Positions 1 through 26,843 of a stretch of 64,000 nt of DNA are shown here, piece after piece. The stretch is from NCBI RefSeq assembly GCF_988242995.1, contig NZ_OZ547043.1; one strand, 5' to 3'. A model generated the notes under the pieces. The model saw only the letters and a list, made by a program, of their open reading frames with translations. It was not told where the DNA came from and ran no database searches. A program made the translations under genes and the position numbers. Positions within the stretch are counted from its first letter, which is position 1. Each line of letters opens with the position of its first letter.

Positions 1-525
1 AGAGAGGGAGCTGGTTGGCTCATCAAAGGCGATAATTTTGGCGTTACGCGCCAGCGCTTTGGCGATTTCAACCATCTGCCACTGACCAATGGAGAGATAT
101 TTCAGCGGCGTGTCCGGGTCAATATCCATACCAAGATGTTTAAGTTGTAAACCCGCCTCATAATTCAGCAATGAGCGATTCACAATGCCGCCTTTATGCG
201 GCAGCTGGCCGAGATAGATGTTTTCCGCGACGGTCATTTCCGGCACGAGATGCAGTTCCTGGTAAATAATCGCCACGCCCGCGTTAAGTGCTGCGGTCGT
301 GTCGGAAAAGGACATTTCCTGCCCATTAATCACTACAGAACCCGTGGTTGGCGCATAGTTGCCGCTGAGGATTTTTAAGAGAGTTGATTTTCCTGCGCCA
401 TTTTCACCCATCAACGCATGAACCTGACCGGCATAGCAGTCAAAACTAATATCCGTCAGCGCCTTAACGCCGGGAAACGTTTTACCGATGCCGCGAAATG
501 AGAGATACGGGGTAGACTGTTGCAT
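1..525 (-). CDS. araG: L-arabinose ABC transporter ATP-binding protein, N-terminal part (gene continues beyond window start)
   Basis: Reverse-strand translation from the ATG complement at 523-525 gives [20 protein letters not shown]..., an ABC ATPase N-terminus; lies downstream of araF in the araFGH operon order. Confidence 0.85.
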
Positions 526-594
526 AACGTCTCCGTGAATCACTGGTCGTTCACACCCCCTCTGCATCATGCAGAGGGGAATTTTTCCGGCAAA

Positions 595-1584
595 TTACTT
601 ACCGCCTAAACCTTTTTTCTCCAGTTCTTCTTTAAAGTTGTCACGCGTGATCAGTACCACGTCGGTAACTTCGGTAAATTTTGGCGGTTCAACGTCTTTT
701 GCTACCCAGTTGTAAAGCATTTCGCTGGATTTATAGCCATGTACGTCCGGGCTTGGCAGCAGGGAACCGTAGAAGCCGGTTGCCTGTGCTTTAGACAGTT
801 CGCTCACCGCATCCACACCGTTAATGCCAATGCCGATGATATCGGCCGCTTTAAAGCCCTGACCTTCCGTCGCGCGTACGCCGCCCAGCACGGTGCTGTC
901 GTTCATACCGACGATCAGCCAATGTTTAACTTCCGGATGTTGAACCAGCATTGAGTTGGCAGCGTCAAATGCCCCCGGGATGTCGTTAGATTTGGTAGGT
1001 ACCTGATAAATTTGTTTTTCCGGGAATCCGGCCGCTTTCAGCGCATCCATAGATCCCGTAGTACGGCGGCGGGCGGTATCCAGTTCGTTGGCGGTAATCG
1101 CCATCACCGCGCTTTCTTTGACATCCCAGCCACGTTTCTGCATCTCTTTATACAGTTCCTGGCCCTGACGTTCGCCAATTTTAGTCGCCGCCATCATCAC
1201 CAGCGGAACGGTATCCATTGGCTTACCTTTGGCGTTAACAAACTGGTCATCCACGGCAATGACTTTCATATCGTAGCCACGCGCTTTCGCGACGATGGCA
1301 GAGCCGAGTTTGGGGTCCGGAGTACAAATAACGAAACCTTTTGCGCCACTGGCAGCCAGGCTGTCGATCGCGTTCAATGTTTTTTCGCCATCCGGCACGG
1401 CAATCTTAATAACCTCAAACCCTAAATCCTTCCCGGCTTTATCGGCAAACTTCCATTCGGTCTGGAACCACGGCTCTTCCGGTTGCTTCACCAGAAAACC
1501 GAGCTTCAGGTTCTCCGCCATAGCGGATTGTGACATAACGGCTGCCAGACCAATGGCTGCCAGGGCTTTAGTAAATTTGTGCAT
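595..1584 (-). CDS. araF: L-arabinose-binding periplasmic protein
   Basis: ORF track 595..1635; start moved to the internal Met (MHKFTKALAAIGLAAVMSQSAMA signal peptide) matching the known AraF N-terminus. Confidence 0.9.
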   Translation of the reverse strand: MHKFTKALAAIGLAAVMSQSAMAENLKLGFLVKQPEEPWFQTEWKFADKAGKDLGFEVIKIAVPDGEKTLNAIDSLAASGAKGFVICTPDPKLGSAIVAKARGYDMKVIAVDDQFVNAKGKPMDTVPLVMMAATKIGERQGQELYKEMQKRGWDVKESAVMAITANELDTARRRTTGSMDALKAAGFPEKQIYQVPTKSNDIPGAFDAANSMLVQHPEVKHWLIVGMNDSTVLGGVRATEGQGFKAADIIGIGINGVDAVSELSKAQATGFYGSLLPSPDVHGYKSSEMLYNWVAKDVEPPKFTEVTDVVLITRDNFKEELEKKGLGGK

Positions 1585-2380
1585 GGTTCTCTCCAGCTTT
1601 AGTGTCGTTTTGTGTAGGGCAAAAACGAATGACATTCGTTAAATTAATCGGAAAACAAAGCATTACCTTTTAACTAAAAGATAAGTGACCGTGTTGACAT
1701 AGTTTTAGCGAGAAATTAATTCTCCATAGGAGAGCAATATCACATCGCAGAATTACAGTGAGAACGTGCATAAATTTAGCGGGAAAAGACATAAGGGAAA
1801 GCCAATTTGTCAGACAAATTGTCGAATGCACAGCAGATTAATCCATAAGATTAGCCTGGAAATCCTTGTTGTCTTTGGTACCCATGCGGGATGTCTTCTT
1901 TTTAACCAGTCAATAGGCCGCATTACCTGGCGTTGAGTTTTTGAAATGGTGTAATAACCGCAACTCAAAGATGTGGAAAATGTACGTCATTCATTTCGCC
2001 ATTAATTATCACTGTGCTCATTAATTAACAGAACACGTATAATGAGAGCCATCTCGCAAAAATGAAAAAACGTTTTATAAAATCATCACTTCATCATGAA
2101 TTCAAATTCATTGATTAATATCAACAAGATACAAAAAGCGCTATCATTAAAATTCATTGCAGTTACATTGATTTCATCAATGAAATGTAAAAATATATAA
2201 ACTTGATGATTTAAGCATTTTCTTATACCCGTTCAGACGTTATTCTTATTTCAGATCATCGTCAGAATTGACTCCACGATCACATTTCGGACCGGCAGAA
2301 AGGAATTATTCTGCAAACAGTAATTATGGTGTTTTGATTTATCTTGCACCTCTCCACTTCTGGATATAAGGATATTAGGT

Positions 2381-2884
2381 ATGGCAACCGCTGGAATGCT
2401 TCTCAAACTCAACTCTCAAATGAACCGCGAGTTTTACGCATCCAATCTCTACCTTCACCTGAGTAACTGGTGTTCTGAACAGAGTCTGAACGGCACCGCC
2501 ACTTTCCTTCGCGCCCAGGCACAGAGTAATGTGACCCAAATGATGCGCATGTTTAACTTTATGAAGAGTGTCGGCGCTACCCCCATCGTTAAAGCCATTG
2601 ATGTTCCCGGTGAAAAACTGAACTCTCTGGAAGAACTGTTCCAAAAAACGATGGAAGAATACGAGCAACGTTCTAGTACGTTGGCACAGTTAGCCGATGA
2701 AGCGAAAGAACTGAATGATGATTCAACCGTCAATTTCCTGCGCGATCTGGAAAAAGAACAGCAGCATGATGGTCTGTTGCTGCAAACCATTCTTGATGAA
2801 GTGCGCAGTGCGAAACTTGCGGGTATGTGCCCTGTGCAGACCGACCAACATGTTCTGAATGTCGTGTCACACCAGCTGCATTGA
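2381..2884 (+). CDS. ftnB: ferritin-like protein FtnB
   Basis: 167-aa ORF with ferritin-like fold; recognised sequence and position between araF and yecJ. Confidence 0.85.
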
Positions 2885-2962
2885 TCATCATCGGCGCTAA
2901 TGCATTGCGCCGATGAAGGTTTTGAGAAACCGCTGCCTCATCTGTTTGAAGCAGCGGTTTTT

Positions 2963-3214
2963 TTAATGGGATTCACCCTGTGGGGTAAACTTGAGTTCAA
3001 TAAGCGCGATGGCTTTTTGGATTGCCCGCATGGTGACCGGGTCTGCGGCGGCGGGATGTTTAGTAAAGTCGATATTCTTCAGCTGACTGGACATTTTTTC
3101 ACGAACTTCAACGGGCGCGATTACATCGAGAACATCCAGAATTTGTTTGATAACCAACTGGCAAGCAACCACATCAGAAACCAGTTCCTGATCGGCATTC
3201 AGCGGCTGGGACAT
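2963..3214 (-). CDS. yecJ: DUF2766 protein YecJ
   Basis: 83-aa ORF recognised as YecJ; conserved neighbourhood. Confidence 0.8.
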
Positions 3215-3300
3215 CGTAAACTCCTGATAGCATTTTGAAAGCCGTTATAGTAGCGGCTTCACATCTTCAGCGATAGTCACATCCACCGTCATCAGGACAC

Positions 3301-3328
3301 AAAAAAACCTGCCGGAGCAGGTTTTTTA
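3301..3328. terminator. bidirectional rho-independent terminator (A-run, stem acctgc/gcaggt, T-run)
   Basis: aaaaaaacctgccggagcaggtttttt read directly; flanked by the 3' ends of yecJ (upstream side) and azuC. Confidence 0.5.
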
Positions 3329-3415
3329 TTATCGGAACATATTGCCTGGCGGTACGTCTTTGAACGTCTTGCAATAGTTATTGAACATACTTTTCAGGAT
3401 TTTGCGCAGTTTCAT
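3329..3415 (-). CDS. azuC: 28-aa small protein AzuC (within the AzuCR/IsrB dual-function RNA)
   Basis: Hand translation of the reverse strand: ATG complement at 3413-3415, MKLRKILKSMFNNYCKTFKDVPPGNMFR, stop complement at 3329-3331; not in the ORF track because it is under 60 aa. Confidence 0.75.
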   Translation of the reverse strand: MKLRKILKSMFNNYCKTFKDVPPGNMFR

Positions 3416-3677
3416 CGCGGCACTCCGACCATTTGTTATACAGGTGTTATTGTCTTTGCGCTTATAATATGACAACCATCACAAAAATCAATCTTTATGT
3501 GATACAAATCACATAAATACTCCTTTAATGTTATAAAAATGATAATCAAAAAACAGCCCCCCTATTTCTGACACCTACAGATGGCAAGAAATAGCGCCTG
3601 CCAGGCGTCTTTTCCGGCCATTGTCGCAGCGCTGTAACGCGTAAAATAGTGCTTTCTCTTACTCTTCTGGCTGGACC

Positions 3678-4001
3678 ATGAGACTTCTGATTCTGACTCT
3701 TTCATTAATAACGCTGGCGGGGTGTACGGTTACTCGCCAGGCCCATGTGAGCGAAGTTGACGCGGCAACAGGTATTGTACGGTTGGTTTATGACCAGGCT
3801 TTTTTGCAGCATGCCCATACCGATCGTTATGTCAGTCGCGGGATCGCCGATCGCGCATGCCAGCAGGAAGGCTATACCCACGCGGTCCCCTTTGGTCAGC
3901 CAGTAGGCAACTGTAGCCTTTTTGCGGGTTCCTTATGTTTGAATACGGAATTCACTTTGTCATATCAGTGCCATCATTCCGCCTTCCCTGTCTTTCTCTA
4001 A
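3678..4001 (+). CDS. yecR: lipoprotein YecR
   Basis: 107-aa ORF with lipobox (LAGC) signal peptide; recognised YecR sequence. Confidence 0.8.
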   Translation: MRLLILTLSLITLAGCTVTRQAHVSEVDAATGIVRLVYDQAFLQHAHTDRYVSRGIADRACQQEGYTHAVPFGQPVGNCSLFAGSLCLNTEFTLSYQCHHSAFPVFL

Positions 4002-4171
4002 ATATTTTAATCAGCGAGGGGATCTTCGCTGATTAAAGAAATAGCGGTAATGCGTTTTATTCCCATTCGTATTTTTAATAATTGAAGTTTATATTTTACC
4101 TTTTGCAAATAATAAAATAACAAATTATAGTGACGCCACAGCAACAAATATAACCTTTGTGGAGCACTATC

Positions 4172-4669
4172 ATGCTGAAACCAGAAATGATTGAAAAACT
4201 TAATGAGCAGATGAACCTGGAACTGTACTCTTCACTGCTTTATCAGCAAATGAGCGCCTGGTGCAGCTATCATACCTTCGAAGGTGCTGCCGCGTTCCTG
4301 CGCCGTCACGCCCAGGAAGAGATGACGCATATGCAGCGTCTGTTTGATTACCTGACTGATACCGGCAATTTACCGCGTATTAATACCGTTGAATCTCCGT
4401 TTGCTGAATATTCCTCACTTGATGAATTATTCCAGGAAACCTATAAACACGAACAATTAATCACCCAGAAAATTAACGAACTGGCTCATGCTGCAATGAC
4501 CAATCAGGACTACCCAACATTTAATTTCCTGCAATGGTATGTTTCTGAGCAGCATGAAGAAGAGAAACTGTTCAAATCGATTATTGATAAATTAAGCCTG
4601 GCAGGCAAAAGCGGCGAAGGTCTGTATTTTATCGACAAAGAACTCTCTACCCTCGACACACAAAACTAA
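4172..4669 (+). CDS. ftnA: ferritin FtnA
   Basis: ORF track 4157..4669; start moved to [13 protein letters not shown] matching the known 165-aa ferritin. Confidence 0.9.
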
Positions 4670-4677
4670 TGCTCTCC

Positions 4678-4703
4678 GGCGGCAGGTTTACTGCCGCCGT
4701 TTC
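4678..4703. terminator. hairpin between convergent ftnA and yecH (cggcggcag/ctgccgccg)
   Basis: Perfect 9-bp inverted repeat read directly; sits between the two convergent stop codons. Confidence 0.5.
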
Positions 4704-4706
4704 AAA

Positions 4707-4946
4707 TCAGTGACGGCAAATCTTACTCTGATCGGTCGAAAAACCGTCTTTCGAAGGTATAAATTTGCCTTTTGCTGCCAGAAACGCTACCAGCTCTCCC
4801 GCTGTCATCCCTTCTGCCGAGCAGGTGTGAAAACGTGCCTGTTCACCAAAACGCGCTTTAATCGCAGCTTCCAGACTGGCATGCGTATATTGCTCGCCTG
4901 ATTCAATCATCATATTTAACACTTCATGACCGTGAATAGAGTCCAT
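4707..4946 (-). CDS. yecH: uncharacterised protein YecH
   Basis: 79-aa ORF, recognised sequence, conserved position. Confidence 0.8.
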   Translation of the reverse strand: MDSIHGHEVLNMMIESGEQYTHASLEAAIKARFGEQARFHTCSAEGMTAGELVAFLAAKGKFIPSKDGFSTDQSKICRH

Positions 4947-5136
4947 CGTCCCTCCTCAAAAAAAGCCTAGCGTAGCGATTGCCGCTTATGAAGACTTTGC
5001 GCCAGCGCAGGACTGAATGCTTTTTATTGTACATTTATATTTACACCATATGTAACGTCGGTTTGACGAAGCAGCCGTTATGCCTTAACCTGCGCCGCAG
5101 ATATCACTCATAAAGATCGTCAGGACAGAAGAAAGC

Positions 5137-6348
5137 GTGAAAAACAGAACCCTGGGAAGTGTTTTTATCGTGGCGGGAACCACAATTGGCGCAGGCATGC
5201 TGGCAATGCCGCTGGCTGCGGCCGGTGTTGGTTTTAGCGTTACGTTAATCTTGTTGATTGGGCTTTGGGCGTTGATGTGCTACACGGCGCTATTACTGCT
5301 GGAGGTGTACCAGCATGTTCCGGCAGATACCGGTCTAGGCACGCTGGCAAAACGCTATCTGGGACGCTACGGTCAATGGCTGACGGGCTTCAGTATGATG
5401 TTCTTAATGTATGCTCTGACTGCGGCATACATCAGCGGTGCCGGTGAATTGTTGGCCTCCAGCATCAGCGACTGGACAGGTATTTCAATGTCGGCAACCG
5501 CTGGCGTGCTGTTGTTCACTTTTGTTGCCGGTGGCGTGGTTTGTGTTGGAACATCGCTGGTCGATTTATTTAACCGTTTTCTGTTCAGCGCCAAAATTAT
5601 TTTTCTGGTGGTGATGCTGGTATTGCTACTACCGCATATTCACAAAGTGAATCTTTTAACCCTGCCGTTGCAACAGGGGCTGGCTCTGTCAGCAATCCCG
5701 GTGATTTTTACCTCATTTGGTTTTCACGGTAGCGTGCCGAGTATTGTCAGCTATATGGATGGCAACGTTCGTAAGCTACGCTGGGTGTTTATAACCGGTA
5801 GTGCGATCCCCCTGGTGGCATATATTTTCTGGCAGGTGGCAACGCTTGGCAGCATTGATTCAACAACCTTTATGGGATTGCTGGCTAATCATGCTGGATT
5901 AAACGGGCTGTTACAGGCGTTACGCGAAATGGTGGCCTCTCCGCATGTTGAGCTGGCAGTGCATTTATTTGCTGATTTAGCCCTCGCCACGTCATTTCTC
6001 GGCGTTGCGTTAGGCTTATTTGATTATCTGGCTGATTTATTTCAGCGTTCAAATACCGTTGGTGGACGGTTGCAAACTGGTGCAATTACCTTTCTGCCGC
6101 CGTTGGCGTTTGCACTGTTTTATCCACGAGGATTTGTGATGGCGCTGGGTTACGCCGGTGTGGCGCTGGCGGTACTGGCATTGATTATCCCTTCGCTGTT
6201 GACCTGGCAAAGCAGAAAGCACAATCCTCAGGCGGGTTACCGGGTGAAAGGTGGTCGTCCGGCGCTGGTGGTGGTGTTTCTCTGTGGTATTGCTGTGATT
6301 GGCGTGCAATTTTTGATTGCGGCAGGGTTGTTACCAGAAGTGGGGTGA
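5137..6348 (+). CDS. tyrP: tyrosine-specific permease (GTG start)
   Basis: 403-aa multi-pass membrane ORF recognised as TyrP; GTG at 5137. Confidence 0.9.
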
Positions 6349-6409
6349 TCAGATAGCCTCAAATTCCTTATTGGGTGCCAGAATTAACGCTGACACCCAA
6401 TTTGACCTC

Positions 6410-7075
6410 TTAATGCAGGCAGCACTGCTTAAATTTCTTACCACTACCGCACGGGCAAGGATCGTTACGCCCCGGTTTCTCTTCTGCTTTGATCGGTTGC
6501 TGAACAGCTTTTTCCTGCGGATGCGCCATCCAGTACGCATGTAGATCAAGCGCCGCCAGTCGAATGGCATCTACGCTCTCTTCAAACGCTTCTGGCGACA
6601 TTTTCTCTACCCGCTCGAAGTTTTCCTCAGTACCGTGCAGCGCAATCGCCTCCAGCGCTGGTTTTAACGAATCGGGCAACGTTGACCAGTCAGAAAGTGC
6701 CACGCCCCGCATATAGCCAAAGCACCACTCCTCAACAATCGTCAGCTCGCTGCCATCAACTTCTCGCAAGCCGAATAACGGCTCAAACTGCTCCGGGAAT
6801 TCGTTCAGACGCTCTGCGGTATCGGCCATATGTTGAAAAGCCAGATTCATAAAGCGCGTCATCTCTTTCTCTGACGCCCAGCGCGGCACATAGTCAGCCC
6901 CACCCCACACGGCAACCAGCCACTGTGCCGGTTCAATCTCTTGCGGAGAACTCAACACCGCCGTCAATAAACCGTCCAGCTCCGCCACATCAAGGATGGC
7001 GTGGTCAGTGTTGTATTTGGTCAGAATATCGTCCAGCCATTCCAACTCACTTTCGTTTAACGGTCCCGTTTTCAT
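6410..7075 (-). CDS. yecA: SEC-C metal-binding motif protein YecA
   Basis: 221-aa ORF ending with the [17 protein letters not shown] motif. Confidence 0.85.
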
Positions 7076-7203
7076 ACGCTTTTCCTTGTGGATCTCAACT
7101 CGCCAGCACCTATCTTACATGCCGGTCCGTATCAGAGATACTTTTTGAGTGGCTTTGCTGGTGATTAAAAATTAAGGAGGGTGTAACGACAAGTTGCAGG
7201 CAC

Positions 7204-7226
7204 AAAAAAACCACCCGAAGGTGGTT
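7204..7226 (-). terminator. rho-independent terminator of the glyW-cysT-leuZ tRNA operon
   Basis: Minus strand reads gaaaccaccttcgggtggttttttt immediately 3' of leuZ. Confidence 0.55.
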
Positions 7227-7270
7227 TCACGACACTGCTTATTGCTTTGATTTTATTCTTATCTTTCCCA

Positions 7271-7357
7271 TGGTACCCGGAGCGGGACTTGAACCCGCAC
7301 AGCGCGAACGCCGAGGGATTTTAAATCCCTTGTGTCTACCGATTCCACCATCCGGGC
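7271..7357 (-). tRNA. leuZ: tRNA-Leu (UAA anticodon type)
   Basis: Reverse complement matches the 87-nt tRNA-Leu, with the extended variable arm and 3' end GGGTACCA. Confidence 0.9.
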
Positions 7358-7369
7358 TCGGGAAGAAAG

Positions 7370-7443
7370 TGGAGGCGCGTTCCGGAGTCGAACCGGACTA
7401 GACGGATTTGCAATCCGCTACATAACCGCTTTGTTAACGCGCC
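7370..7443 (-). tRNA. cysT: tRNA-Cys (GCA)
   Basis: Reverse complement matches GGCGCGTTAACAAAGCGGTTATGTAGCGGATTGCAAATCCGTC...CTCCA. Confidence 0.9.
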
Positions 7444-7497
7444 AAATTCTTCAGGCCTTTCAGCCAGACATCCGCTTGAGGCCGATGTCTTTTAAAC

Positions 7498-7573
<76 letters not shown>

Positions 7574-7724
7574 ATTCATCAAGCAATCAGTTAATCACTT
7601 GATTTTATTATCGTCTGGCAATCAGTGCCGCCGTTCGATGCGTTGCATTCTACTTACCTGGCGCGATGAGTCAACGATATTTTTCACCACTTTTGATCGT
7701 TTGCTGAAAATTACGCCGAAACGA

Positions 7725-8273
7725 TCACTGATCAAGCAAATCTGCACGCGCAGCGCTCAAATATTGCAACATTGACCACAGAGTCAGTACCGCAGCCACA
7801 AAGAAAAGTGCAATACCGGCGTACTCAACCCAAATGTTCGGACGCCACAGCAGCCAGGCCAACGCCACCATCTGGGCAGTGGTTTTCACTTTCCCAATCC
7901 AGGAGACAGCCACGCTACTGCGTTTACCCAACTCCGCCATCCATTCGCGTAGCGCAGAAATAATAATTTCACGGGCGATCATCGTTGCCGCCGGTAGGGT
8001 CACCCACCAGCTGTGATAATGCTCGGTTACCAGCACCATGGCGATAGCCACGAGAACTTTATCTGCTACAGGGTCAAGGAAAGCACCAAACCGGGTACTC
8101 TGGTTCCAGCGGCGTGCCAGAAAACCATCGAACCAGTCAGTCACCGCCGCGACGCAGAAAATGAGCGCGGCGGCAAACGGCGACCAGGTGACAGGCAGAT
8201 AAAAGACCAATACAAAGAATGGGATAAGGATGACACGGAACAGTGTAAGCAACGTAGGGATATTAAATTGCAT
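7725..8273 (-). CDS. pgsA: CDP-diacylglycerol--glycerol-3-phosphate 3-phosphatidyltransferase
   Basis: 182-aa membrane ORF recognised as PgsA. Confidence 0.9.
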
Positions 8274-8329
8274 AATGACGGGTAACTATCTGTTGTCAGT
8301 AAGATTACCCCTATGTTGCTACAGAGACA

Positions 8330-10162
8330 TCAATGTTTCAACGACCAGAAGATCTTTTCTGCCAGACCTTGCGAAATACCCGGCACTTTTGCAATTTCCT
8401 CGACGCTGGCGTTACGTAAACCTTGCAAACCGCCCATATATTTCAACAACATTTGCCGACGTTTTGGCCCGACGCCTTCAATGGTTTCCAGGGAGCTGGT
8501 ATTTTTGACCTTCGCCCGTTTTTTACGGTGCCCGCCAATCGCGTGATCGTGTGATTCATCGCGAATATGCTGGATAACATGCAGCGCGGGAGAATCTGGC
8601 GGCAAACTGAATCCCTCACCTTCCGGCTCAAAGAACAGTGTTTCCAGCCCAGCCTTACGATCTGCTCCTTTGGCAACGCCAAGTAGCAGTGGATGATTTT
8701 TATCCCATGAGACATCCAGTTCGGCGAAGACATTTTTCGCCTGCGCAAGCTGGCCTTTGCCGCCGTCGATAAGGATCACATCCGGGATCTTACTGTCGTC
8801 AATGGCTTTACCATAACGCCGACGCAGCACCTGATTCATCGCCGCATAATCATCGCCCGGCGTGATGCCTGTAATGTTATAGCGCCGATACTCCGCACGC
8901 AGCGGGCCGTTAGCATCAAACACCACACAGGAAGCGACGGTTTGTTCGCCCATGGTATGGCTGATGTCAAAGCACTCCATCCGCTTCACTTCCGGCAATT
9001 TCAACACGCTGGCAAGCGCGGTCAGTCGCTGGTGAACGGTAGATTGCTGCGAAAGTTTGCTGGTTAAGGCCGTCGCCGCATTGGTGCGCGCGAGTTTCAG
9101 ATAACGCGCCCTATCGCCGCGAGGTTTGGTTTGAACATTAATCTTGCGTCCCGCCAGTTCTGAAAGGGAATCGGCGAGCAGCGTTTTATCGCTAAGATTA
9201 AAATCGAGCAGGATCTCACCCGGTAAGGTGCGCATCTGGCTGCCTTGTAAATAGAACTGGCCTACGAAGGTTTCTACCACCTCGCTCAGTTCCGTACCGC
9301 CAGGCACTTTCGGGAAATAGCTGCGGCTGCCGAGCACTTTGCCCTGACGAATGAACAATACGTGGACACAAGCCATGCCCGCATCGAACGCCACACCAAT
9401 AACGTCGAGGTCGTCGCCGGTATTGGAAACAAACTGTTTTTCGGTGACGCGTCGCACCGCCTGAATTTGGTCGCGAATACGTGCCGCTTCTTCAAACTCC
9501 AGATTCTGGCTGGCAGTTTCCATACGGCTAATCAGTTGCGTAAGCACCTGATCATCTTTGCCAGACAAAAACAGGCGCACATACTCGACCTGCTGAGCGT
9601 ATTCTTCTTCACTCACCAGTCCTTCAACGCACGGTCCCAGACAGCGCCCTATCTGATATTGCAGACACGGACGCGAGCGATTACGATAAACACTATTTTC
9701 GCACTGGCGAATGGGGAATATCTTTTGCAGTAGCGCCAGTGTTTCACGTACGGCATAGCCATTCGGGAACGGGCCGAAATATTCACCTTTGGCATGCTTC
9801 GCACCACGATGCATCGCCAGACGCGGGTGGGTATCGCCACTCAGGAAGATAAAAGGATAAGATTTATCATCGCGTAGCAAAACGTTGTAACGCGGCTGAT
9901 AGAGTTTGATGTAGTTGTGTTCCAGCAACAGCGCTTCGGTTTCTGTGTGAGTAACCGTTACATCAATTTGCTGGATCTGGGCGACCAGCGCTTCGGTTTT
10001 GCGCGAAGCGAGGTTGCTACGGAAATAGCTGGAAAGCCGTTTTTTCAGGTCTTTCGCTTTGCCGACATAGATAACCGTACCACCAGCATCGTACATGCGA
10101 TAAACGCCTGGCTGGCTGGTTACGGTTTTTAAAAACGCTTTTGCGTCAAACTGATCACTCAC
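8330..10162 (-). CDS. uvrC: excinuclease ABC subunit C
   Basis: 610-aa ORF with GIY-YIG N-terminus ([24 protein letters not shown]) and C-terminal HhH; recognised UvrC. Confidence 0.95.
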
Positions 10163-10815
10163 TGACTTGATAATGTCTCCGCATTACACAGACCATGGCG
10201 AATTGCCAGGTGAGTCAGCTCAACATCGCCATGAATGTTTAGTTTACTGAACATACGATAGCGGTAGCTGTTCACCGTTTTCGGACTGAGATTGAGCTGT
10301 TCTGAGATCTCATTGACCTTCTGGCCCTTGGTGATCATCAGCATAATCTGCAATTCACGTTCAGACAAACTGGCAAATGGGCTTTCTGTTTTTTCTGGTT
10401 CGATCTGGCTTAACGCCATTTGTTGAGCGATATCAGAAGCAATGTAACGCTGCCCAGAATAGACAGAACGAATCGCACTCACGACTTCCTGCGGAGCCGC
10501 GCCTTTGCTGAGGTAGCCAGCAGCACCTGCCTGCATGACTTTCGCTGGTAAAGGGTTTTCTGTATGGACCGTAAGCATGATGATTTTAACATCAGCTGTG
10601 GAACGCGCGATTTTACGCGTCGCCTCAAGACCGCCAATGCCCGGCATACTCATGTCCATTAGCACCACGTCAACGGCGTTTGTCCGGCACCACTTAACGG
10701 CGTCTTCACCGCACGATGCCTCTCCGACGACTTTTATACCCTTTATATCTTCCAGAATGCGTCGTATCCCTGCGCGCACCAGTTCGTGGTCATCAACAAG
10801 TAGAACGTTGATCAA
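10159..10815 (-). CDS. uvrY: two-component response regulator UvrY (BarA partner)
   Basis: 218-aa receiver plus LuxR-type HTH ORF; 4-nt overlap with the uvrC start. Confidence 0.95.
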
Positions 10816-11273
10816 AGGAATATCTCCAGAAATAGGGATAACGCTACTGATAGTTAGTCATTCGTATATTAGCGGTTTTTATTGCAACTTTGAAACGTTA
10901 AAAATGGTGGGTATTCGATTTTTCTCTCGTTTTTGTCAATTCGATTGTCCACAGTTATGGTCACGCCCGTCACCAACGGTTTACCGGATCGTTTCACAGT
11001 AAGCCCTACGATGAAATGTGACAAAAATTGACTTTATTCAGCAAAAATGAAAATCAGCCCGCTGAATATGTAACATTAATTAACCCGAACAATACGGGCA
11101 AAAAACATTCATGATAAAAATATTTATTGGTCATTATATTAACGTATTTTATAGCACTGCCGATATCACGCTCAAAAAACAACCACTGCTATTTTTAGCA
11201 AAGCTTATGGTATACTCCGCCGCCTTAACATTTTTCACCGCAAATTTTCATTGCAACATGACGAGGAAAATAA

Positions 11274-11498
11274 ATGAGTACGCCTGATTTTTCTACTGCC
11301 GAGAATAATCAAGAACTGGCAAATGAAGTCTCCTGCCTGAAAGCGATGCTGACGCTGATGCTGCAGGCGATGGGACAAGCTGACGCGGGCCGCGTGATGT
11401 TAAAGATGGAAAAACAGCTTGCGCTGATCGAAGACGAAACCCAGGCTGCAGTATTTTCCAAAACGGTTAAGCAAATTAAACAAGCCTACCGTCAGTAA
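11274..11498 (+). CDS. yecF: DUF2594 protein YecF
   Basis: 74-aa ORF recognised; conserved between uvrY and sdiA. Confidence 0.8.
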
Positions 11499-11503
11499 TA
11501 TAA

Positions 11504-11538
11504 AACCGGCTGAGAGCGTGCCTTTCAGCCGGTTTTTG
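11504..11538 (+). terminator. rho-independent terminator after yecF
   Basis: ccggctga...tcagccgg stem followed by ttttt. Confidence 0.5.
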
Positions 11539-11564
11539 CATCTGGCACGCAGAAAGAAAAGCGA

Positions 11565-23638: not shown

Positions 23639-24055
23639 TTACGGCAGTGGCGTCGGTAACGGCGCTTTATCCAGCGCGGCGGCACACTCTGCCGTCGGGC
23701 GATCCACACGCTCCATCGTCATACCATCGTACTCAATGGTGTTACCGTCACGCTCAACCTCGTACAGCTCACGTTTTACGGTAACGTTAGTGAGATCATC
23801 AGACATCAATGTCAACTTGCCCGGCACGGCAATCACCCGCTGCCACTGACGGCAATCCAGGGTATCGCCCTCTTTAGTGACAATCAGGCTGCCTATCGCT
23901 TCCGGACTGACCAGCGCACGTTGCGGCCCTTTGGTCTGCCAGTAGCCCGCCAGCCAGTCCGGCGCGGGGGTTTTCACGACATTGTTATAGTTTTCGACTT
24001 CGGCACAGCCCGCCAGCAACATGAGCGCGCTTGCAATTGCGAGTTTTTTCATCAT
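23639..24055 (-). CDS. yedD: lipoprotein YedD
   Basis: 138-aa ORF with lipobox LAGC. Confidence 0.8.
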   Translation of the reverse strand: MMKKLAIASALMLLAGCAEVENYNNVVKTPAPDWLAGYWQTKGPQRALVSPEAIGSLIVTKEGDTLDCRQWQRVIAVPGKLTLMSDDLTNVTVKRELYEVERDGNTIEYDGMTMERVDRPTAECAAALDKAPLPTPLP

Positions 24056-24238
24056 TCGTCCTGCATGAGAAGAAAAGAGGATTGTGGCATTAAAGCCCTG
24101 ATGTCGCCAGCCTTTCCAGGTTCAGAGAGAAATTTGATCTAACTATTATTTTTGTGAATTATTACCCCGAAAATAAATTTGCATGATGTATGATTCGCGA
24201 TTCTTGTTTCAAACCTTCTGAGTTCAGAGGCTACATTC

Positions 24239-25444
24239 ATGTCATGGCAGCAATTCAAACACGCCTGGTTGATTAAATTCTGGGCACCCATCCCTGCGGT
24301 CATCGCGGCGGGTATTCTCTCCACTTACTATTTTGGCATTACTGGCACCTTTTGGGCTGTCACGGGTGAATTTACCCGTTGGGGCGGCCAGCTCCTGCAG
24401 CTGTTTGGCGTCCATGCTGAAGAGTGGGGTTATTTTAAAATTATCCATCTGGAAGGATCGCCATTAACCCGCATCGACGGGATGATGATCCTCGGCATGT
24501 TTGGCGGCTGCTTTGCCGCAGCGCTGTGGGCCAACAATGTCAAACTGCGCATGCCACGCAGCCGTATCCGCATTATGCAGGCCATTATTGGCGGTATTAT
24601 CGCTGGTTTTGGCGCGCGTCTGGCAATGGGCTGTAACCTGGCGGCGTTCTTTACCGGTATTCCTCAGTTCTCGCTGCATGCCTGGTTCTTTGCCATCGCC
24701 ACTGCCATTGGTTCATGGTTTGGCGCACGCTTTACCCTGCTGCCCATCTTCCGTATTCCCGTGAAAATGCAGAAAGTTTCTGCCGCCTCACCGCTGACGC
24801 AAAAACCGGATCAGGCGCGGCGTCGTTTTCGTCTCGGGATGCTGGTCTTTTTCGGTATGCTGGGCTGGGCGCTGCTCACGGCGATGAACCAACCAAAACT
24901 GGGGCTGGCAATGCTGTTTGGCGTCGGCTTTGGTTTACTGATTGAACGTGCGCAAATCTGCTTTACTTCGGCGTTCCGCGATATGTGGATCACCGGACGT
25001 ACCCATATGGCGAAAGCAATCATTATCGGTATGGCGGTGAGTGCCATCGGGATCTTCAGTTACGTACAGTTAGGCGTTGAACCCAAAATCATGTGGGCGG
25101 GACCAAACGCGGTAATTGGTGGTTTACTGTTTGGTTTTGGCATCGTGCTGGCAGGCGGCTGCGAAACCGGCTGGATGTACCGCGCGGTAGAAGGCCAGGT
25201 GCACTACTGGTGGGTCGGTCTGGGCAATGTGATCGGCTCGACGATTCTGGCGTATTACTGGGATGATTTCGCTCCGGCGCTGGCCACCGACTGGGACAAA
25301 ATCAACCTGCTGAAAACCTTTGGCCCGATGGGTGGCCTGCTGGTGACATATTTGCTGTTGTTTACTGCGCTGATGTTGATTATCGGCTGGGAAAAACGCT
25401 TCTTCCGCCGTGCGGCACCGCAGACTGCTAAGGAGATCGCATGA
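24239..25444 (+). CDS. yedE: YeeE/YedE-family inner-membrane transporter (sulfur/selenium compounds)
   Basis: 401-aa polytopic ORF recognised as YedE. Confidence 0.85.
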   Translation: MSWQQFKHAWLIKFWAPIPAVIAAGILSTYYFGITGTFWAVTGEFTRWGGQLLQLFGVHAEEWGYFKIIHLEGSPLTRIDGMMILGMFGGCFAAALWANNVKLRMPRSRIRIMQAIIGGIIAGFGARLAMGCNLAAFFTGIPQFSLHAWFFAIATAIGSWFGARFTLLPIFRIPVKMQKVSAASPLTQKPDQARRRFRLGMLVFFGMLGWALLTAMNQPKLGLAMLFGVGFGLLIERAQICFTSAFRDMWITGRTHMAKAIIIGMAVSAIGIFSYVQLGVEPKIMWAGPNAVIGGLLFGFGIVLAGGCETGWMYRAVEGQVHYWWVGLGNVIGSTILAYYWDDFAPALATDWDKINLLKTFGPMGGLLVTYLLLFTALMLIIGWEKRFFRRAAPQTAKEIA

Positions 25445-25674
25445 AAAATATCGTTCCTGATTACCGCCTTGATATGGTGGGTGAACCCTGCCCTTATCCG
25501 GCAGTCGCAACTCTTGAGGCGATGCCGCAGTTAAAAAAAGGGGAAATCCTGGAAGTGGTGAGCGACTGTCCACAGTCGATCAATAATATTCCACTGGATG
25601 CGCGTAATCACGGCTATACGGTGCTGGATATTCAGCAAGACGGGCCGACCATTCGTTATTTAATTCAGAAGTAA
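25441..25674 (+). CDS. yedF: TusA-like sulfurtransferase-fold protein
   Basis: 77-aa ORF with the CPYP motif (EPCPYPAV); 4-nt overlap with yedE. Confidence 0.85.
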   Translation: MKNIVPDYRLDMVGEPCPYPAVATLEAMPQLKKGEILEVVSDCPQSINNIPLDARNHGYTVLDIQQDGPTIRYLIQK

Positions 25675-25681
25675 TCCCTCA

Positions 25682-25706
25682 TTCCCGCTGTGGCCCACAG
25701 CGGGAA
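25682..25706 (+). terminator. hairpin after yedF (ttcccgctgtgg/ccacagcgggaa), no clear T-run
   Basis: 12-bp perfect inverted repeat read directly. Confidence 0.35.
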
Positions 25707-25780
25707 CATCGTTGCCTCTGACACATAGATTTTACCCGCCCCCTCTCCTATTCTTTTCAGTATGATCTCAGGAGGTTTCT

Positions 25781-26449
25781 ATGTGTGGACGCTTTGCCCA
25801 ATCCCAAACGCGTGAAGATTACCTTGCGCTTCTCGCGGAAGATATTGAACGCGATATTCCCTACGATCCCGAACCCATTGGCAGATACAACGTCGCGCCG
25901 GGAACCAAAGTTCTTCTGCTCAGTGAACGTGATGAACACCTTCATCTGGATCCGGTTTTCTGGGGATATGCTCCCGGATGGTGGGATAAACCGCCGCTGA
26001 TTAACGCCCGCGTAGAAACTGCGGCCACCAGTCGTATGTTTAAACCGCTCTGGCAACATGGTCGGGCAATCTGTTTTGCCGATGGCTGGTTTGAGTGGAA
26101 AAAAGAAGGCGACAAAAAACAGCCTTATTTTATCTATCGCGCTGATGGACAACCTGTTTTTATGGCCGCGATAGGTAGCACACCGTTTGAGCGCGGTGAC
26201 GAAGCCGAAGGATTTTTAATTGTCACTGCAGCAGCAGACCAGGGTCTGGTAGATATTCATGACCGCCGCCCGCTGGTTCTGTCGCCAGAAGCTGCACAGG
26301 AATGGATGCGGCAAGAGATTGGCGGTAAAGAAGCATCAGAAATTGCTACCAACGGCTGTGTGCCAGCAAACCAGTTCACCTGGCACCCGGTATCGCGCGC
26401 GGTGGGTAATATCAAAAACCAGGGAGCGGAGTTAATTCAACCGGTTTGA
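25781..26449 (+). CDS. yedK: SRAP-domain abasic-site processing protein (SOS-response associated peptidase)
   Basis: 222-aa ORF starting MCGRF with the catalytic Cys2; recognised YedK. Confidence 0.85.
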   Translation: MCGRFAQSQTREDYLALLAEDIERDIPYDPEPIGRYNVAPGTKVLLLSERDEHLHLDPVFWGYAPGWWDKPPLINARVETAATSRMFKPLWQHGRAICFADGWFEWKKEGDKKQPYFIYRADGQPVFMAAIGSTPFERGDEAEGFLIVTAAADQGLVDIHDRRPLVLSPEAAQEWMRQEIGGKEASEIATNGCVPANQFTWHPVSRAVGNIKNQGAELIQPV

Positions 26450-26843
26450 TAAGCCAGGAGACTATTGATCAATAATACTGCGTCATAAGAAATCTCTATT
26501 AGACAATAGTAGACGCTCCTTCCACATGCGCCACAAGAAACCTCTATTCCAGTGACACAATTACGCCTGATTATTTCCCTAGCCCGGAATATGAATAAAA
26601 ACATCAACAAAGATTAAATTATTCAAACGTTACTGTTGCGTCTGCGGTCGTAGCAACATCCGACGTGGTGATGAGTGTTAAAAGAGACACTCTGATGTTC
26701 AGAGGGGTTATCGCGTTTACGGATCGTGGATGGCAGAAAACTTTCAGGATCAGGTATCCATTTTAAACCAGAAATTGAGTGAGTTTGCCCCATCCATGCC
26801 CCAAGCGGTGAGATTGGAAGTAATTAACAACAGGTTACAAAAC

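What the first reader, a model, noticed from the sequence alone, without database searches (positions are those of the whole stretch)
24239..25674. yedE–yedF transporter / TusA-like pair with overlapping genes
A YeeE/YedE-family membrane protein and a 77-aa TusA-like protein with the CPxP motif overlap by 4 nt, indicating translational coupling. The module is implicated in selenium or thiosulfate handling but is still only partly characterised.
Basis: partly seen in the sequence, partly recalled or inferred. Interest (0 to 1): 0.2.

Follow-up and report, generated by a model that had tools for sequence, protein, structure and literature searches.

The report
E. coli yedE–yedF selenium-linked transporter pair

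Summary
Observation and interpretation both hold. Window 24239-25444 (+) encodes the 401-aa YedE (Pfam Sulf_transp, 5e-51). Window 25441-25674 (+) encodes the 77-aa YedF (TusA, 9e-21; CPYP motif; identical to PDB 1JE3). They overlap by ATGA, with an AAGGAG ribosome-binding site inside the yedE 3' end. The DNA is 100% identical to E. coli chromosomes and occurs in 5377 of 5426 complete genomes.

Curated models place the pair in the selenium-linked YedE/FdhT and YedF families, not in thiosulfate TsuA/TsuB. The function is still inferred: Campylobacter FdhT/FdhU genetics, ydfZ adjacency and anaerobic co-expression support it, and no E. coli phenotype was found.

Two additions:
2. An invariant 17-nt palindrome overlaps the yedE ribosome-binding site in at least 105 Enterobacteriaceae species. 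Its role is unexplained.

The ATGA overlap is present in 80 of 84 species examined. Verdict: already known, low interest.

The parts
24189..24194 (+). Candidate -10 hexamer TATGAT of the yedE promoter (weak evidence)
   Evidence: A GTAtnAT box recurs upstream of yedE in five genera and in many scan loci despite otherwise diverged intergenic sequence. The consensus scan did not call it. No transcription start data were available.
24214..24230 (+). Invariant 17-nt leader element CCTTCTGAGTTCAGAGG: an imperfect palindrome forming a 6-bp stem with a 4-nt loop, whose 3' arm contains the yedE Shine-Dalgarno (AGAGG); it ends 8 nt before the ATG
   Evidence: It occurs once in the window. It is identical in E. 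coli, Salmonella, K. aerogenes and Enterobacter although their flanks differ. Of 120 exact genome hits, 105 lie 6-10 nt upstream of a yedE start. The hairpin is predicted, but its energy is no better than shuffled sequence.
24239..25444 (+). yedE: 401-aa inner-membrane protein with 10 predicted TM helices, YedE/FdhT family; relay cysteines C132, C241 and C308; halves in B-A order (circular permutant of YeeE/TsuA)
25430..25435 (+). Shine-Dalgarno AAGGAG for yedF, embedded in the 3' end of yedE
   Evidence: Read from the sequence. AAGGAG- or AGGAG-type sites are conserved before the yedF ATG across species.
25441..25444 (+). ATGA start/stop overlap of yedF and yedE
   Evidence: Conserved in 80 of 84 Enterobacteriaceae loci; 3 of the 4 exceptions are truncated yedE genes.
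25441..25674 (+). yedF: 77-aa TusA-fold protein with Cys17 in CPYP and a second Cys43 in DCPQ
   Evidence: Pfam TusA 9e-21. NCBIfam YedF equivalog 156.8 bits against 79. 100% identical to PDB 1JE3. CPYP in 81 of 81 and DCP in 79 of 81 orthologues.
25682..25706 (+). Perfect 11-bp GC-rich hairpin 8 nt after the yedF stop, with no U tract; probably an operon-end terminator or stabiliser
   Evidence: RNA fold -21.9 kcal/mol, z = -3.4, 1 of 200 shuffles as stable. Hafnia and Enterobacter have hairpins of unrelated sequence at the same place, and the Enterobacter one has a U tract.

Best explanation
The locus is the core E. coli operon yedE-yedF.

YedE is a 10-helix inner-membrane protein with the hourglass YeeE fold. 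It carries three invariant cysteines (C132 on the periplasmic side, then C308 and C241 towards the cytoplasm) lining a central pathway. YedF is a small cytoplasmic TusA-fold protein whose CPYP cysteine (C17), helped by C43, would dock on the cytoplasmic face of YedE and receive the substrate.

By analogy with YeeE-YeeD (thiosulfate) and from the genetics of the Campylobacter orthologues FdhT/FdhU, the most likely job is uptake and hand-over of trace selenium (a selenite-derived species) for selenophosphate synthesis. That would supply selenocysteine formate dehydrogenases and seleno-tRNA, mainly under anaerobic conditions.

The ATGA overlap and the embedded Shine-Dalgarno sequence couple YedF synthesis to YedE synthesis, so the channel is made together with its acceptor.

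Shown here: gene identity, family membership, fold, cysteine conservation, permuted architecture, and conservation of the pairing and overlap. Inferred: the substrate, the direction of transport, the cysteine relay, docking, and translational coupling.
For: Identity: 100% identical to annotated yedE/yedF and present in 5377 of 5426 E. coli genomes.

Families: NF033796 YedE/FdhT at 620 bits against a cutoff of 350, and the YedF equivalog at 156.8 against 79. YedF is PDB 1JE3.

Cysteines: the TsuA-essential C25/C94/C302 (PMC7449682) correspond to YedE C241/C308/C132, which are invariant in 16 B-A-clade proteins down to 26% identity. YedF C17/C43 correspond to EcYeeD C13/C39, both required for YeeD function (PMC11073785).

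Partnership: a TusA-family gene directly adjoins the transporter in all eleven loci inspected individually (downstream in ten, upstream in L013), and YedF follows yedE in all enterobacterial loci with enough sequence.

Selenium link: FdhT contributes to selenium-dependent formate dehydrogenase activity in C. jejuni (PMC11237541). ydfZ ('putative selenium delivery protein', 108 bits against 49.7) lies directly upstream of yedE in 7 species and nearby in L136. yedEF belongs to an anaerobically active iModulon proposed to serve Mo/Se usage (PMC7888660).

Coupling: the ATGA junction and SD are conserved.
Against: No E. coli yedE or yedF phenotype for selenium was found in the searchable literature.

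Deletion of an archaeal yedE-annotated locus gave no clear selenium transport defect, and that paper states that no dedicated selenium transporter is known in any organism (PMC11097638).

The C. jejuni fdhT mutant keeps considerable formate dehydrogenase activity.

The comparative-genomics case of Lin et al. 2015 concerns TIGR04112/TIGR03527, whose cutoffs the E. coli proteins do not reach.

Substrate, direction and docking all rest on analogy with a paralogue that has the opposite order of halves.
Confidence: 0.65

Rival explanations
1. YedE-YedF is a second sulfur-species importer (thiosulfate, polysulfide or another sulfane-sulfur species) that works like TsuA-TsuB or the split YedE1/E2 system, and the selenium annotation is guilt by association.
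For: Same fold and same three relay cysteines as the thiosulfate transporter. YedF is 33% identical to TsuB, E 3e-13. Split family members import zero-valent sulfur (PMC10812762). The co-expressed ynjE encodes a sulfurtransferase.
Against: YedE falls far below both TsuA model cutoffs (120.9 against 400; 80.8 against 645), and YedF falls below the TsuB cutoff (43.1 against 147.5). An E. coli cysPUWA yeeE double mutant cannot grow on thiosulfate although yedEF is intact (PMC7449682). ydfZ adjacency and the FdhT genetics point to selenium.
Confidence: 0.17
2. YedE-YedF exports or detoxifies excess selenium or reactive chalcogen species rather than importing them.
For: Lin et al. 2015 proposed a selenium exporter role for their YedE family (PMC5322559). 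Tanaka et al. 2020 note that their data cannot exclude YeeE forming an anion channel (PMC7449682), so direction is not fixed by the architecture.
Against: The fdhT and fdhT selF mutants lose formate dehydrogenase activity when selenium is limiting, which fits import. YeeE and YedE1E2 both act as importers. The cytoplasmic cysteine acceptor fits capture of an incoming substrate.
Confidence: 0.08
3. The two genes are merely adjacent. YedF acts on its own as a general TusA-like sulfur relay or regulator, and the 4-nt overlap is just compact gene packing without functional coupling.
For: ATGA overlaps are common in bacterial operons. In some relatives the TusA gene is separated by 13-74 nt or placed upstream.
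Against: The pair moves as a unit between at least four chromosomal contexts. YedF is below the TusA equivalog cutoff (32.2 against 78). The homologous YeeD is strictly required by YeeE and binds it physically. The transporter-TusA pairing holds across both half-orders of the family.
Confidence: 0.05

Closest known systems
E. coli K-12 YedE (UPF0394 inner membrane protein) and YedF (PDB 1JE3)
   Same: It is the same locus. The DNA is 100% identical to annotated E. coli chromosomes and YedF is identical to the 1JE3 chain.
   Different: Nothing differs. This is an allele of the known gene pair.
Campylobacter jejuni FdhT (Cj1500) / FdhU: selenium supply for formate dehydrogenase
   Same: They share one curated family (NF033796 'YedE/FdhT'), which the window protein passes at 620 bits. 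The transporter is paired with a small TusA-like protein. The genetic link to selenium-dependent formate dehydrogenase activity comes from PMC11237541.
   Different: The phenotype was measured in Campylobacter, not E. coli, and the mutant is leaky. I did not align the Cj1500 sequence here; family co-membership rests on the name and scope of the NCBIfam model.
YeeE/TsuA-YeeD/TsuB thiosulfate uptake system (PDB 6LEO, 6LEP, 8J4C, 8K1R)
   Different: The order of the two homologous halves is reversed (a circular permutation). YedE has 10 predicted helices against 9 TM helices in YeeE. It falls below the TsuA and TsuB cutoffs. tsuA and tsuB do not overlap in K-12 (13-nt gap). The substrate probably differs.
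Split half-size YedE1/YedE2 (PmpA/PmpB-type) zero-valent sulfur importers
   Same: Same superfamily (COG2391). Each half has 4 TM helices and conserved cysteines are essential (PMC10812762). They illustrate the two-gene state from which fusions in either order could arise.
   Different: They are two separate ~140-aa proteins and a different substrate has been shown. That paper's 'EcYedE3' is YeeE, not this protein.
TIGR04112 'YedE' / TIGR03527 'YedF' of Lin et al. 2015 (selenium-utilisation-linked)
   Same: Distant homologues. Weak profile matches suggest TIGR04112 has the same B-A half order as E. coli YedE.
   Different: E. coli YedE scores 17 bits against a cutoff of 200. E. coli YedF scores 22.7 against 110 and lacks the DsrE-like domain of the 194-position model. 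The SelD co-occurrence statistics in that paper therefore do not transfer directly.

Membership tests
YeeE/YedE family (Pfam PF04143 Sulf_transp) | Profile match above the gathering score | tested here: met
   174.5 bits against 27, E 5.1e-51.
YeeE/YedE family (Pfam PF04143 Sulf_transp) | Hourglass YeeE fold built from four pseudo-symmetric helix-loop-helix elements | tested here: met
YeeE/YedE family (Pfam PF04143 Sulf_transp) | Three conserved pathway cysteines (StYeeE C22, C91, C293) | tested here: met
   YedE C241, C308 and C132 align to them and are invariant in alignment A4.
YeeE/YedE family (Pfam PF04143 Sulf_transp) | Order of the two halves as in YeeE and the Pfam model (A then B) | tested here: not met
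   Crossed alignments: 85.5 + 42.0 bits crossed against 26.6 + 31.2 straight. The Pfam best stretch 237-394 maps to profile positions 1-162. Rotating A-B relatives gives a single collinear HSP. This is a permuted member, not a non-member.
Selenium metabolism membrane protein YedE/FdhT (NCBIfam NF033796) | Score at or above the curated cutoff, full-length collinear match | tested here: met
   620 bits against 350; residues 10-390 map to profile positions 2-385 of 387.
Selenium metabolism membrane protein YedE/FdhT (NCBIfam NF033796) | Contribution to selenium acquisition or selenoprotein biogenesis | not testable with these tools
   Only indirect support: FdhT genetics in C. jejuni, ydfZ adjacency and the anaerobic iModulon. 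No E. coli phenotype was found.
Thiosulfate transporter TsuA/YeeE (NF041049, NF052577) | Score at or above the curated cutoff | tested here: not met
   80.8 against 645 and 120.9 against 400.
TusA family (Pfam PF01206) | Profile match and an N-terminal CPxP cysteine motif | tested here: met
   73.9 bits against 28.6. C17-P-Y-P20. CPYP in 81 of 81 orthologues.
YedF equivalog (NCBIfam NF008242) | Score at or above the cutoff; solved structure of the same protein | tested here: met
   156.8 bits against 79. 100% identity to PDB 1JE3 residues 21-97.
TsuB/YeeD (NF041048) and TusA proper (NF001423) | Score at or above the curated cutoffs | tested here: not met
   43.1 against 147.5 and 32.2 against 78.
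TIGR04112 seleno_YedE / TIGR03527 selenium_YedF (Lin et al. 2015 candidates) | Score at or above the cutoffs; YedF with SirA-like plus DsrE-like domains | tested here: not met
   17 against 200 and 22.7 against 110. The 77-aa YedF covers only profile positions 1-59 of 194.
Translationally coupled gene pair | Start/stop overlap with a ribosome-binding site inside the upstream gene | tested here: met
   ATGA at 25441-25444 and AAGGAG at 25430-25435. Conserved in 80 of 84 species.
Translationally coupled gene pair | Downstream translation depends on upstream translation | not testable with these tools
   This needs reporter fusions with premature stops in yedE.

The most novel reading that the evidence does not exclude
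E. coli YedE-YedF would be a dedicated trace-selenium importer, and two undescribed features would matter functionally. First, the B-A circular permutation would mark the selenium-type clade, having arisen by re-fusion of half-transporter genes in the opposite order from thiosulfate YeeE. Second, the invariant 17-nt leader palindrome that buries the yedE ribosome-binding site would be a translational or transcriptional switch that tunes expression to selenium or redox status.
Probability: 0.12. Interest if true: 0.5.

Novelty: already known. Interest (0 to 1): 0.15.

Why it matters
As submitted, the finding is a correct reading of an annotated core E. coli operon, so it adds nothing new.

It touches a real gap. 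[quoted passage not shown]

Two details seen here are practical aids for anyone testing it. Because of the permuted half order, the YeeE structure must be mapped onto YedE crosswise (C132 to C293, C241 to C22, C308 to C91). The conserved leader element is a ready target for expression studies.

Tried and rejected
1. Shared operator. I tested whether the 17-nt palindrome is shared by the co-expressed operons. There were no matches with up to 3 mismatches in 16 kb around ydjX...ynjE or 14 kb around yjiLM, and the element occurs once in each genome stretch returned by the scan. Rejected.

2. FNR/CRP-type site. The conserved TTGATC box lacks a matching second half-site by eye in four genera. Not supported.

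3. Known RNA families. Rfam returned 0 matches up to E = 1 in 23500-26500.

4. Covariation in the leader hairpin. Only Hafnia shows a different palindrome. More distant orthologues lack the element, and folding energies are no better than shuffles. Undecided.

5. The 'zero-valent sulfur transporter YedE' paper (PMC10812762). It concerns split Cupriavidus proteins, and its 'EcYedE3' is YeeE, so it is not evidence about this protein.

6. Consensus promoter and terminator scan. Counts equal chance.

7. The primary FdhTU paper (PMC3416564) is not held, so I used a later paper that cites and re-tests it.

8. The first homologue search gave only Enterobacterales at 82% identity or more. The 50%-clustered library was needed for diversity.

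9. I assumed the whole window equals strain E2865. That is false upstream of about 18,050, so annotations from that record outside roughly 18.1-32 kb were not used.

Full report
OBSERVATION. The two ORFs are where the finding says. yedE is 24239..25444 (+), 401 aa; yedF is 25441..25674 (+), 77 aa. Read directly, the junction is GCTAAGGAGATCGC-ATG-A: the yedF ATG is 25441-25443, the yedE TGA is 25442-25444, the overlap is 4 nt, and an AAGGAG Shine-Dalgarno lies at 25430-25435. YedF carries C17-P-Y-P20. The 1.9-kb region is 100% identical to several E. coli chromosomes, where these CDS are annotated yedE and yedF. It is found in 5377 of 5426 complete E. coli genomes. The local gene order is fliDST-amyA-yedD(-)-yedE-yedF-yedK-integrase fragment-fliE(-)-fliF.

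FAMILY ASSIGNMENTS. YedE matches Pfam Sulf_transp at 174.5 bits against a cutoff of 27. YedF matches TusA at 73.9 against 28.6. NCBIfam is more specific:
- YedE passes 'selenium metabolism membrane protein YedE/FdhT' (620 against 350).
- YedE fails both TsuA thiosulfate-transporter models (120.9 against 400; 80.8 against 645).
- YedF passes its own equivalog (156.8 against 79).
- YedF fails TsuB/YeeD (43.1 against 147.5) and TusA proper (32.2 against 78).
- Neither protein reaches the TIGR04112/TIGR03527 models on which the comparative-genomics case of Lin et al. 2015 was built. The 77-aa YedF also lacks the DsrE-like domain of that 'YedF'.

A PERMUTED ARCHITECTURE. The PDB sequence search aligned YedE to YeeE crosswise: YedE 224-333 to YeeE 5-116, and YedE 71-165 to YeeE 233-326. 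YeeE has internal pseudo-222 symmetry (PMC7449682), so I tested half against half with E. coli TsuA.
- Crossed pairs score 85.5 bits (E 7.5e-26) and 42.0 bits.
- Straight pairs score 26.6 and 31.2 bits.

The 50%-clustered library contains full-length relatives of both kinds:
- A B-A group collinear with E. coli YedE. P0121, P0126 and P0140 pass the YedE/FdhT cutoff.
- An A-B group (P0173, P0181 and others). These hit the YedE/FdhT model in two crossed stretches (about 241 bits), more strongly than they hit either TsuA model, and they pass no curated cutoff.

The rotation test is decisive. Cutting P0173 at residue 228 and joining B+A converts two crossed HSPs (118 + 117 bits) into one HSP over YedE 14-387 (219 bits, E 3.7e-72). 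Global identity rises from 19% to 34.9%. The same holds for P0181, P0186, P0231 and TsuA.

The model's helices and the positive-inside pattern suggest 10 TM helices with both termini in the cytoplasm (8 K/R in loop 168-198, 5 K/R in the C-terminal tail). That topology makes such a rotation trivial; this last step is inference. The three cysteines essential in TsuA (C25, C94, C302) correspond to YedE C241, C308 and C132. All three are invariant across 16 B-A proteins down to 26% identity, whereas C91 is not. A text search for YedE together with 'permut*' returned nothing relevant. The permutation may therefore be undescribed, but I cannot exclude a description in literature or databases that are not held.

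THE PAIRING. A TusA-family gene directly adjoins the transporter in all eleven loci I inspected individually, in both half-orders. The geometry varies:
- 4-nt overlap in Hafnia, Enterobacter, Salmonella, K. aerogenes and L138.
- 11-nt overlap in L007.
- 13-74 nt gaps in L008-L010.
- The yedF-type gene lies upstream in L013.

The genome scan returned 105 enterobacterial yedE loci. Of the 84 with enough downstream sequence, 80 have the ATGA junction. Three of the four exceptions are truncated yedE genes, and one has a 9-nt gap. Among the YedF orthologues, CPYP is present in 81 of 81 and the second cysteine (DCP) in 79 of 81.

The module sits after yedD in 51 species, trpA in 16, ydfZ in 7 and other genes in 22, and after deaD in Hafnia. 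It therefore relocates as a unit.

MECHANISM. The best analogue is YeeE-YeeD. YeeD is essential for YeeE-mediated uptake. Its CPxP cysteine binds thiosulfate, and in E. coli YeeD both C13 and C39 are needed. YeeD docks on the cytoplasmic face of YeeE (PMC11073785). YedF C17 and C43 are the counterparts.

I infer a cysteine-lined passage C132 -> C308 -> C241 ending on YedF C17.

Selenium as the substrate is supported indirectly:
- The family name and cutoff.
- C. jejuni fdhT and fdhT selF mutants lose formate dehydrogenase activity under selenium limitation (PMC11237541).
- ydfZ, which passes 'putative selenium delivery protein YdfZ' at 108 bits against 49.7, lies directly upstream of yedE in several species.
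- yedEF is co-expressed with ydjXYZ-ynjABCD, ynjE and yjiLM in an anaerobically active iModulon proposed to serve Mo/Se usage (PMC7888660).

Evidence against thiosulfate: an E. coli cysPUWA yeeE mutant cannot use thiosulfate although yedEF is intact.

Evidence against over-confidence: no E. coli phenotype was found, the archaeal yedE deletion was inconclusive, and the fdhT mutant is leaky.

REGULATORY ANATOMY. No Rfam family matches, and the consensus promoter and terminator counts equal chance.

A 17-nt element, CCTTCTGAGTTCAGAGG (24214-24230), ends 8 nt before the yedE ATG. It is identical in four genera whose flanks differ. Of these, 105 lie 6-10 nt upstream of a yedE start, and 15 are scattered in unrelated taxa, as chance predicts.

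The element folds as a 6-bp stem with the Shine-Dalgarno sequence in its 3' arm, but its energy is not better than shuffled sequence. Hafnia has a different palindrome at the same position, and distant orthologues lack the element. It is absent near ydjX, ynjE and yjiM. Whether it is an RNA hairpin or a DNA operator remains undecided.

After yedF there is a perfect 11-bp hairpin (25682-25706; -21.9 kcal/mol, z = -3.4) without a U tract. Other genera have unrelated hairpins at the same position.

VERDICT. The finding is accurate and the thing is already known. Interest is low. The permutation and the leader element are modest additions and do not change that.

Noticed in passing
window 24239-25444 (yedE), compared with L002 6468-7526 (tsuA) and proteins P0173, P0181, P0186, P0231: YedE is a circular permutant of YeeE/TsuA and of an A-B-order group of ~400-aa relatives: its two homologous halves are in the opposite order. 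Rotating the relatives restores a single collinear alignment (219 bits against 118 + 117 crossed). No description was found in the searchable literature.
   Followed up: yes
window 24214-24230: An invariant 17-nt palindromic element, CCTTCTGAGTTCAGAGG, overlaps the yedE Shine-Dalgarno. It is found 6-10 nt upstream of yedE in at least 105 Enterobacteriaceae species, whatever the upstream neighbour. Its function is unknown (an SD-occluding hairpin or an operator).
   Followed up: partly
window 25682-25706: A perfect 11-bp GC-rich hairpin lies right after yedF (-21.9 kcal/mol, z = -3.4) with no U tract. Hafnia and Enterobacter have hairpins of unrelated sequence at the same position.
   Followed up: partly
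L012 2633-2836 (K. aerogenes); L136 74-277; 7 of the scan loci: ydfZ ('putative selenium delivery protein YdfZ', TIGR03318, 108 bits against 49.7) lies directly upstream of yedE in some Enterobacteriaceae. This is independent genomic-context support for a selenium role.
   Followed up: partly
L014 5402-7516 (K-12 ydjX, ydjZ), with the PMC7888660 iModulon: The operon co-expressed with yedEF encodes two DedA-family proteins (YdjX, YdjZ). In C. jejuni a DedA protein (SelF) and FdhT are the two selenium acquisition routes. The E. coli iModulon may therefore unite both kinds of candidate selenium importer. I did not compare the sequences with SelF.
   Followed up: no
L009 158-2040; L010 2651-4182 (metagenomic contigs): The A-B-order ~400-aa relatives (predicted 10 TM helices) are closer to YedE/FdhT than to TsuA and pass no curated NCBIfam cutoff. 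Each is followed by a TusA-like gene (below the YedF cutoff where tested, in L009), and in L009 a rhodanese gene comes next. This looks like an unnamed subfamily.
   Followed up: partly
L005, L006, L011, L012 and the scan loci L016-L135: The yedE-yedF module occupies at least four different chromosomal sites within Enterobacteriaceae (after yedD, trpA, ydfZ or other genes; after deaD in Hafnia). It always brings its leader element and yedF, so it relocates as a unit.
   Followed up: partly
window 26688-26810: Between yedK and fliE, the identical RefSeq record annotates a short internal fragment of an integrase gene as a pseudogene. This suggests a decayed integration site next to the module.
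   Followed up: no
L138 1501-2941 (GCA_900452525.1); L033, L091, L111: In a few species yedE is split or truncated (206 + 146 aa ORFs with IS1 genes about 0.7-1.4 kb upstream in L138; 37-219 aa in three scan loci), so the gene is occasionally lost as a pseudogene.
   Followed up: no
window 1-18050: The window is in register with, and nearly identical to, strain E2865 (NZ_AP018808.1) only from about 18,050 onward. Upstream, register is lost near the fliA-fliC region. The first 7.7 kb carries core genes (araG, araF, ftnB, yecA, tyrP), not the E2865 P2-like prophage, so the source is a different strain background.
   Followed up: partly
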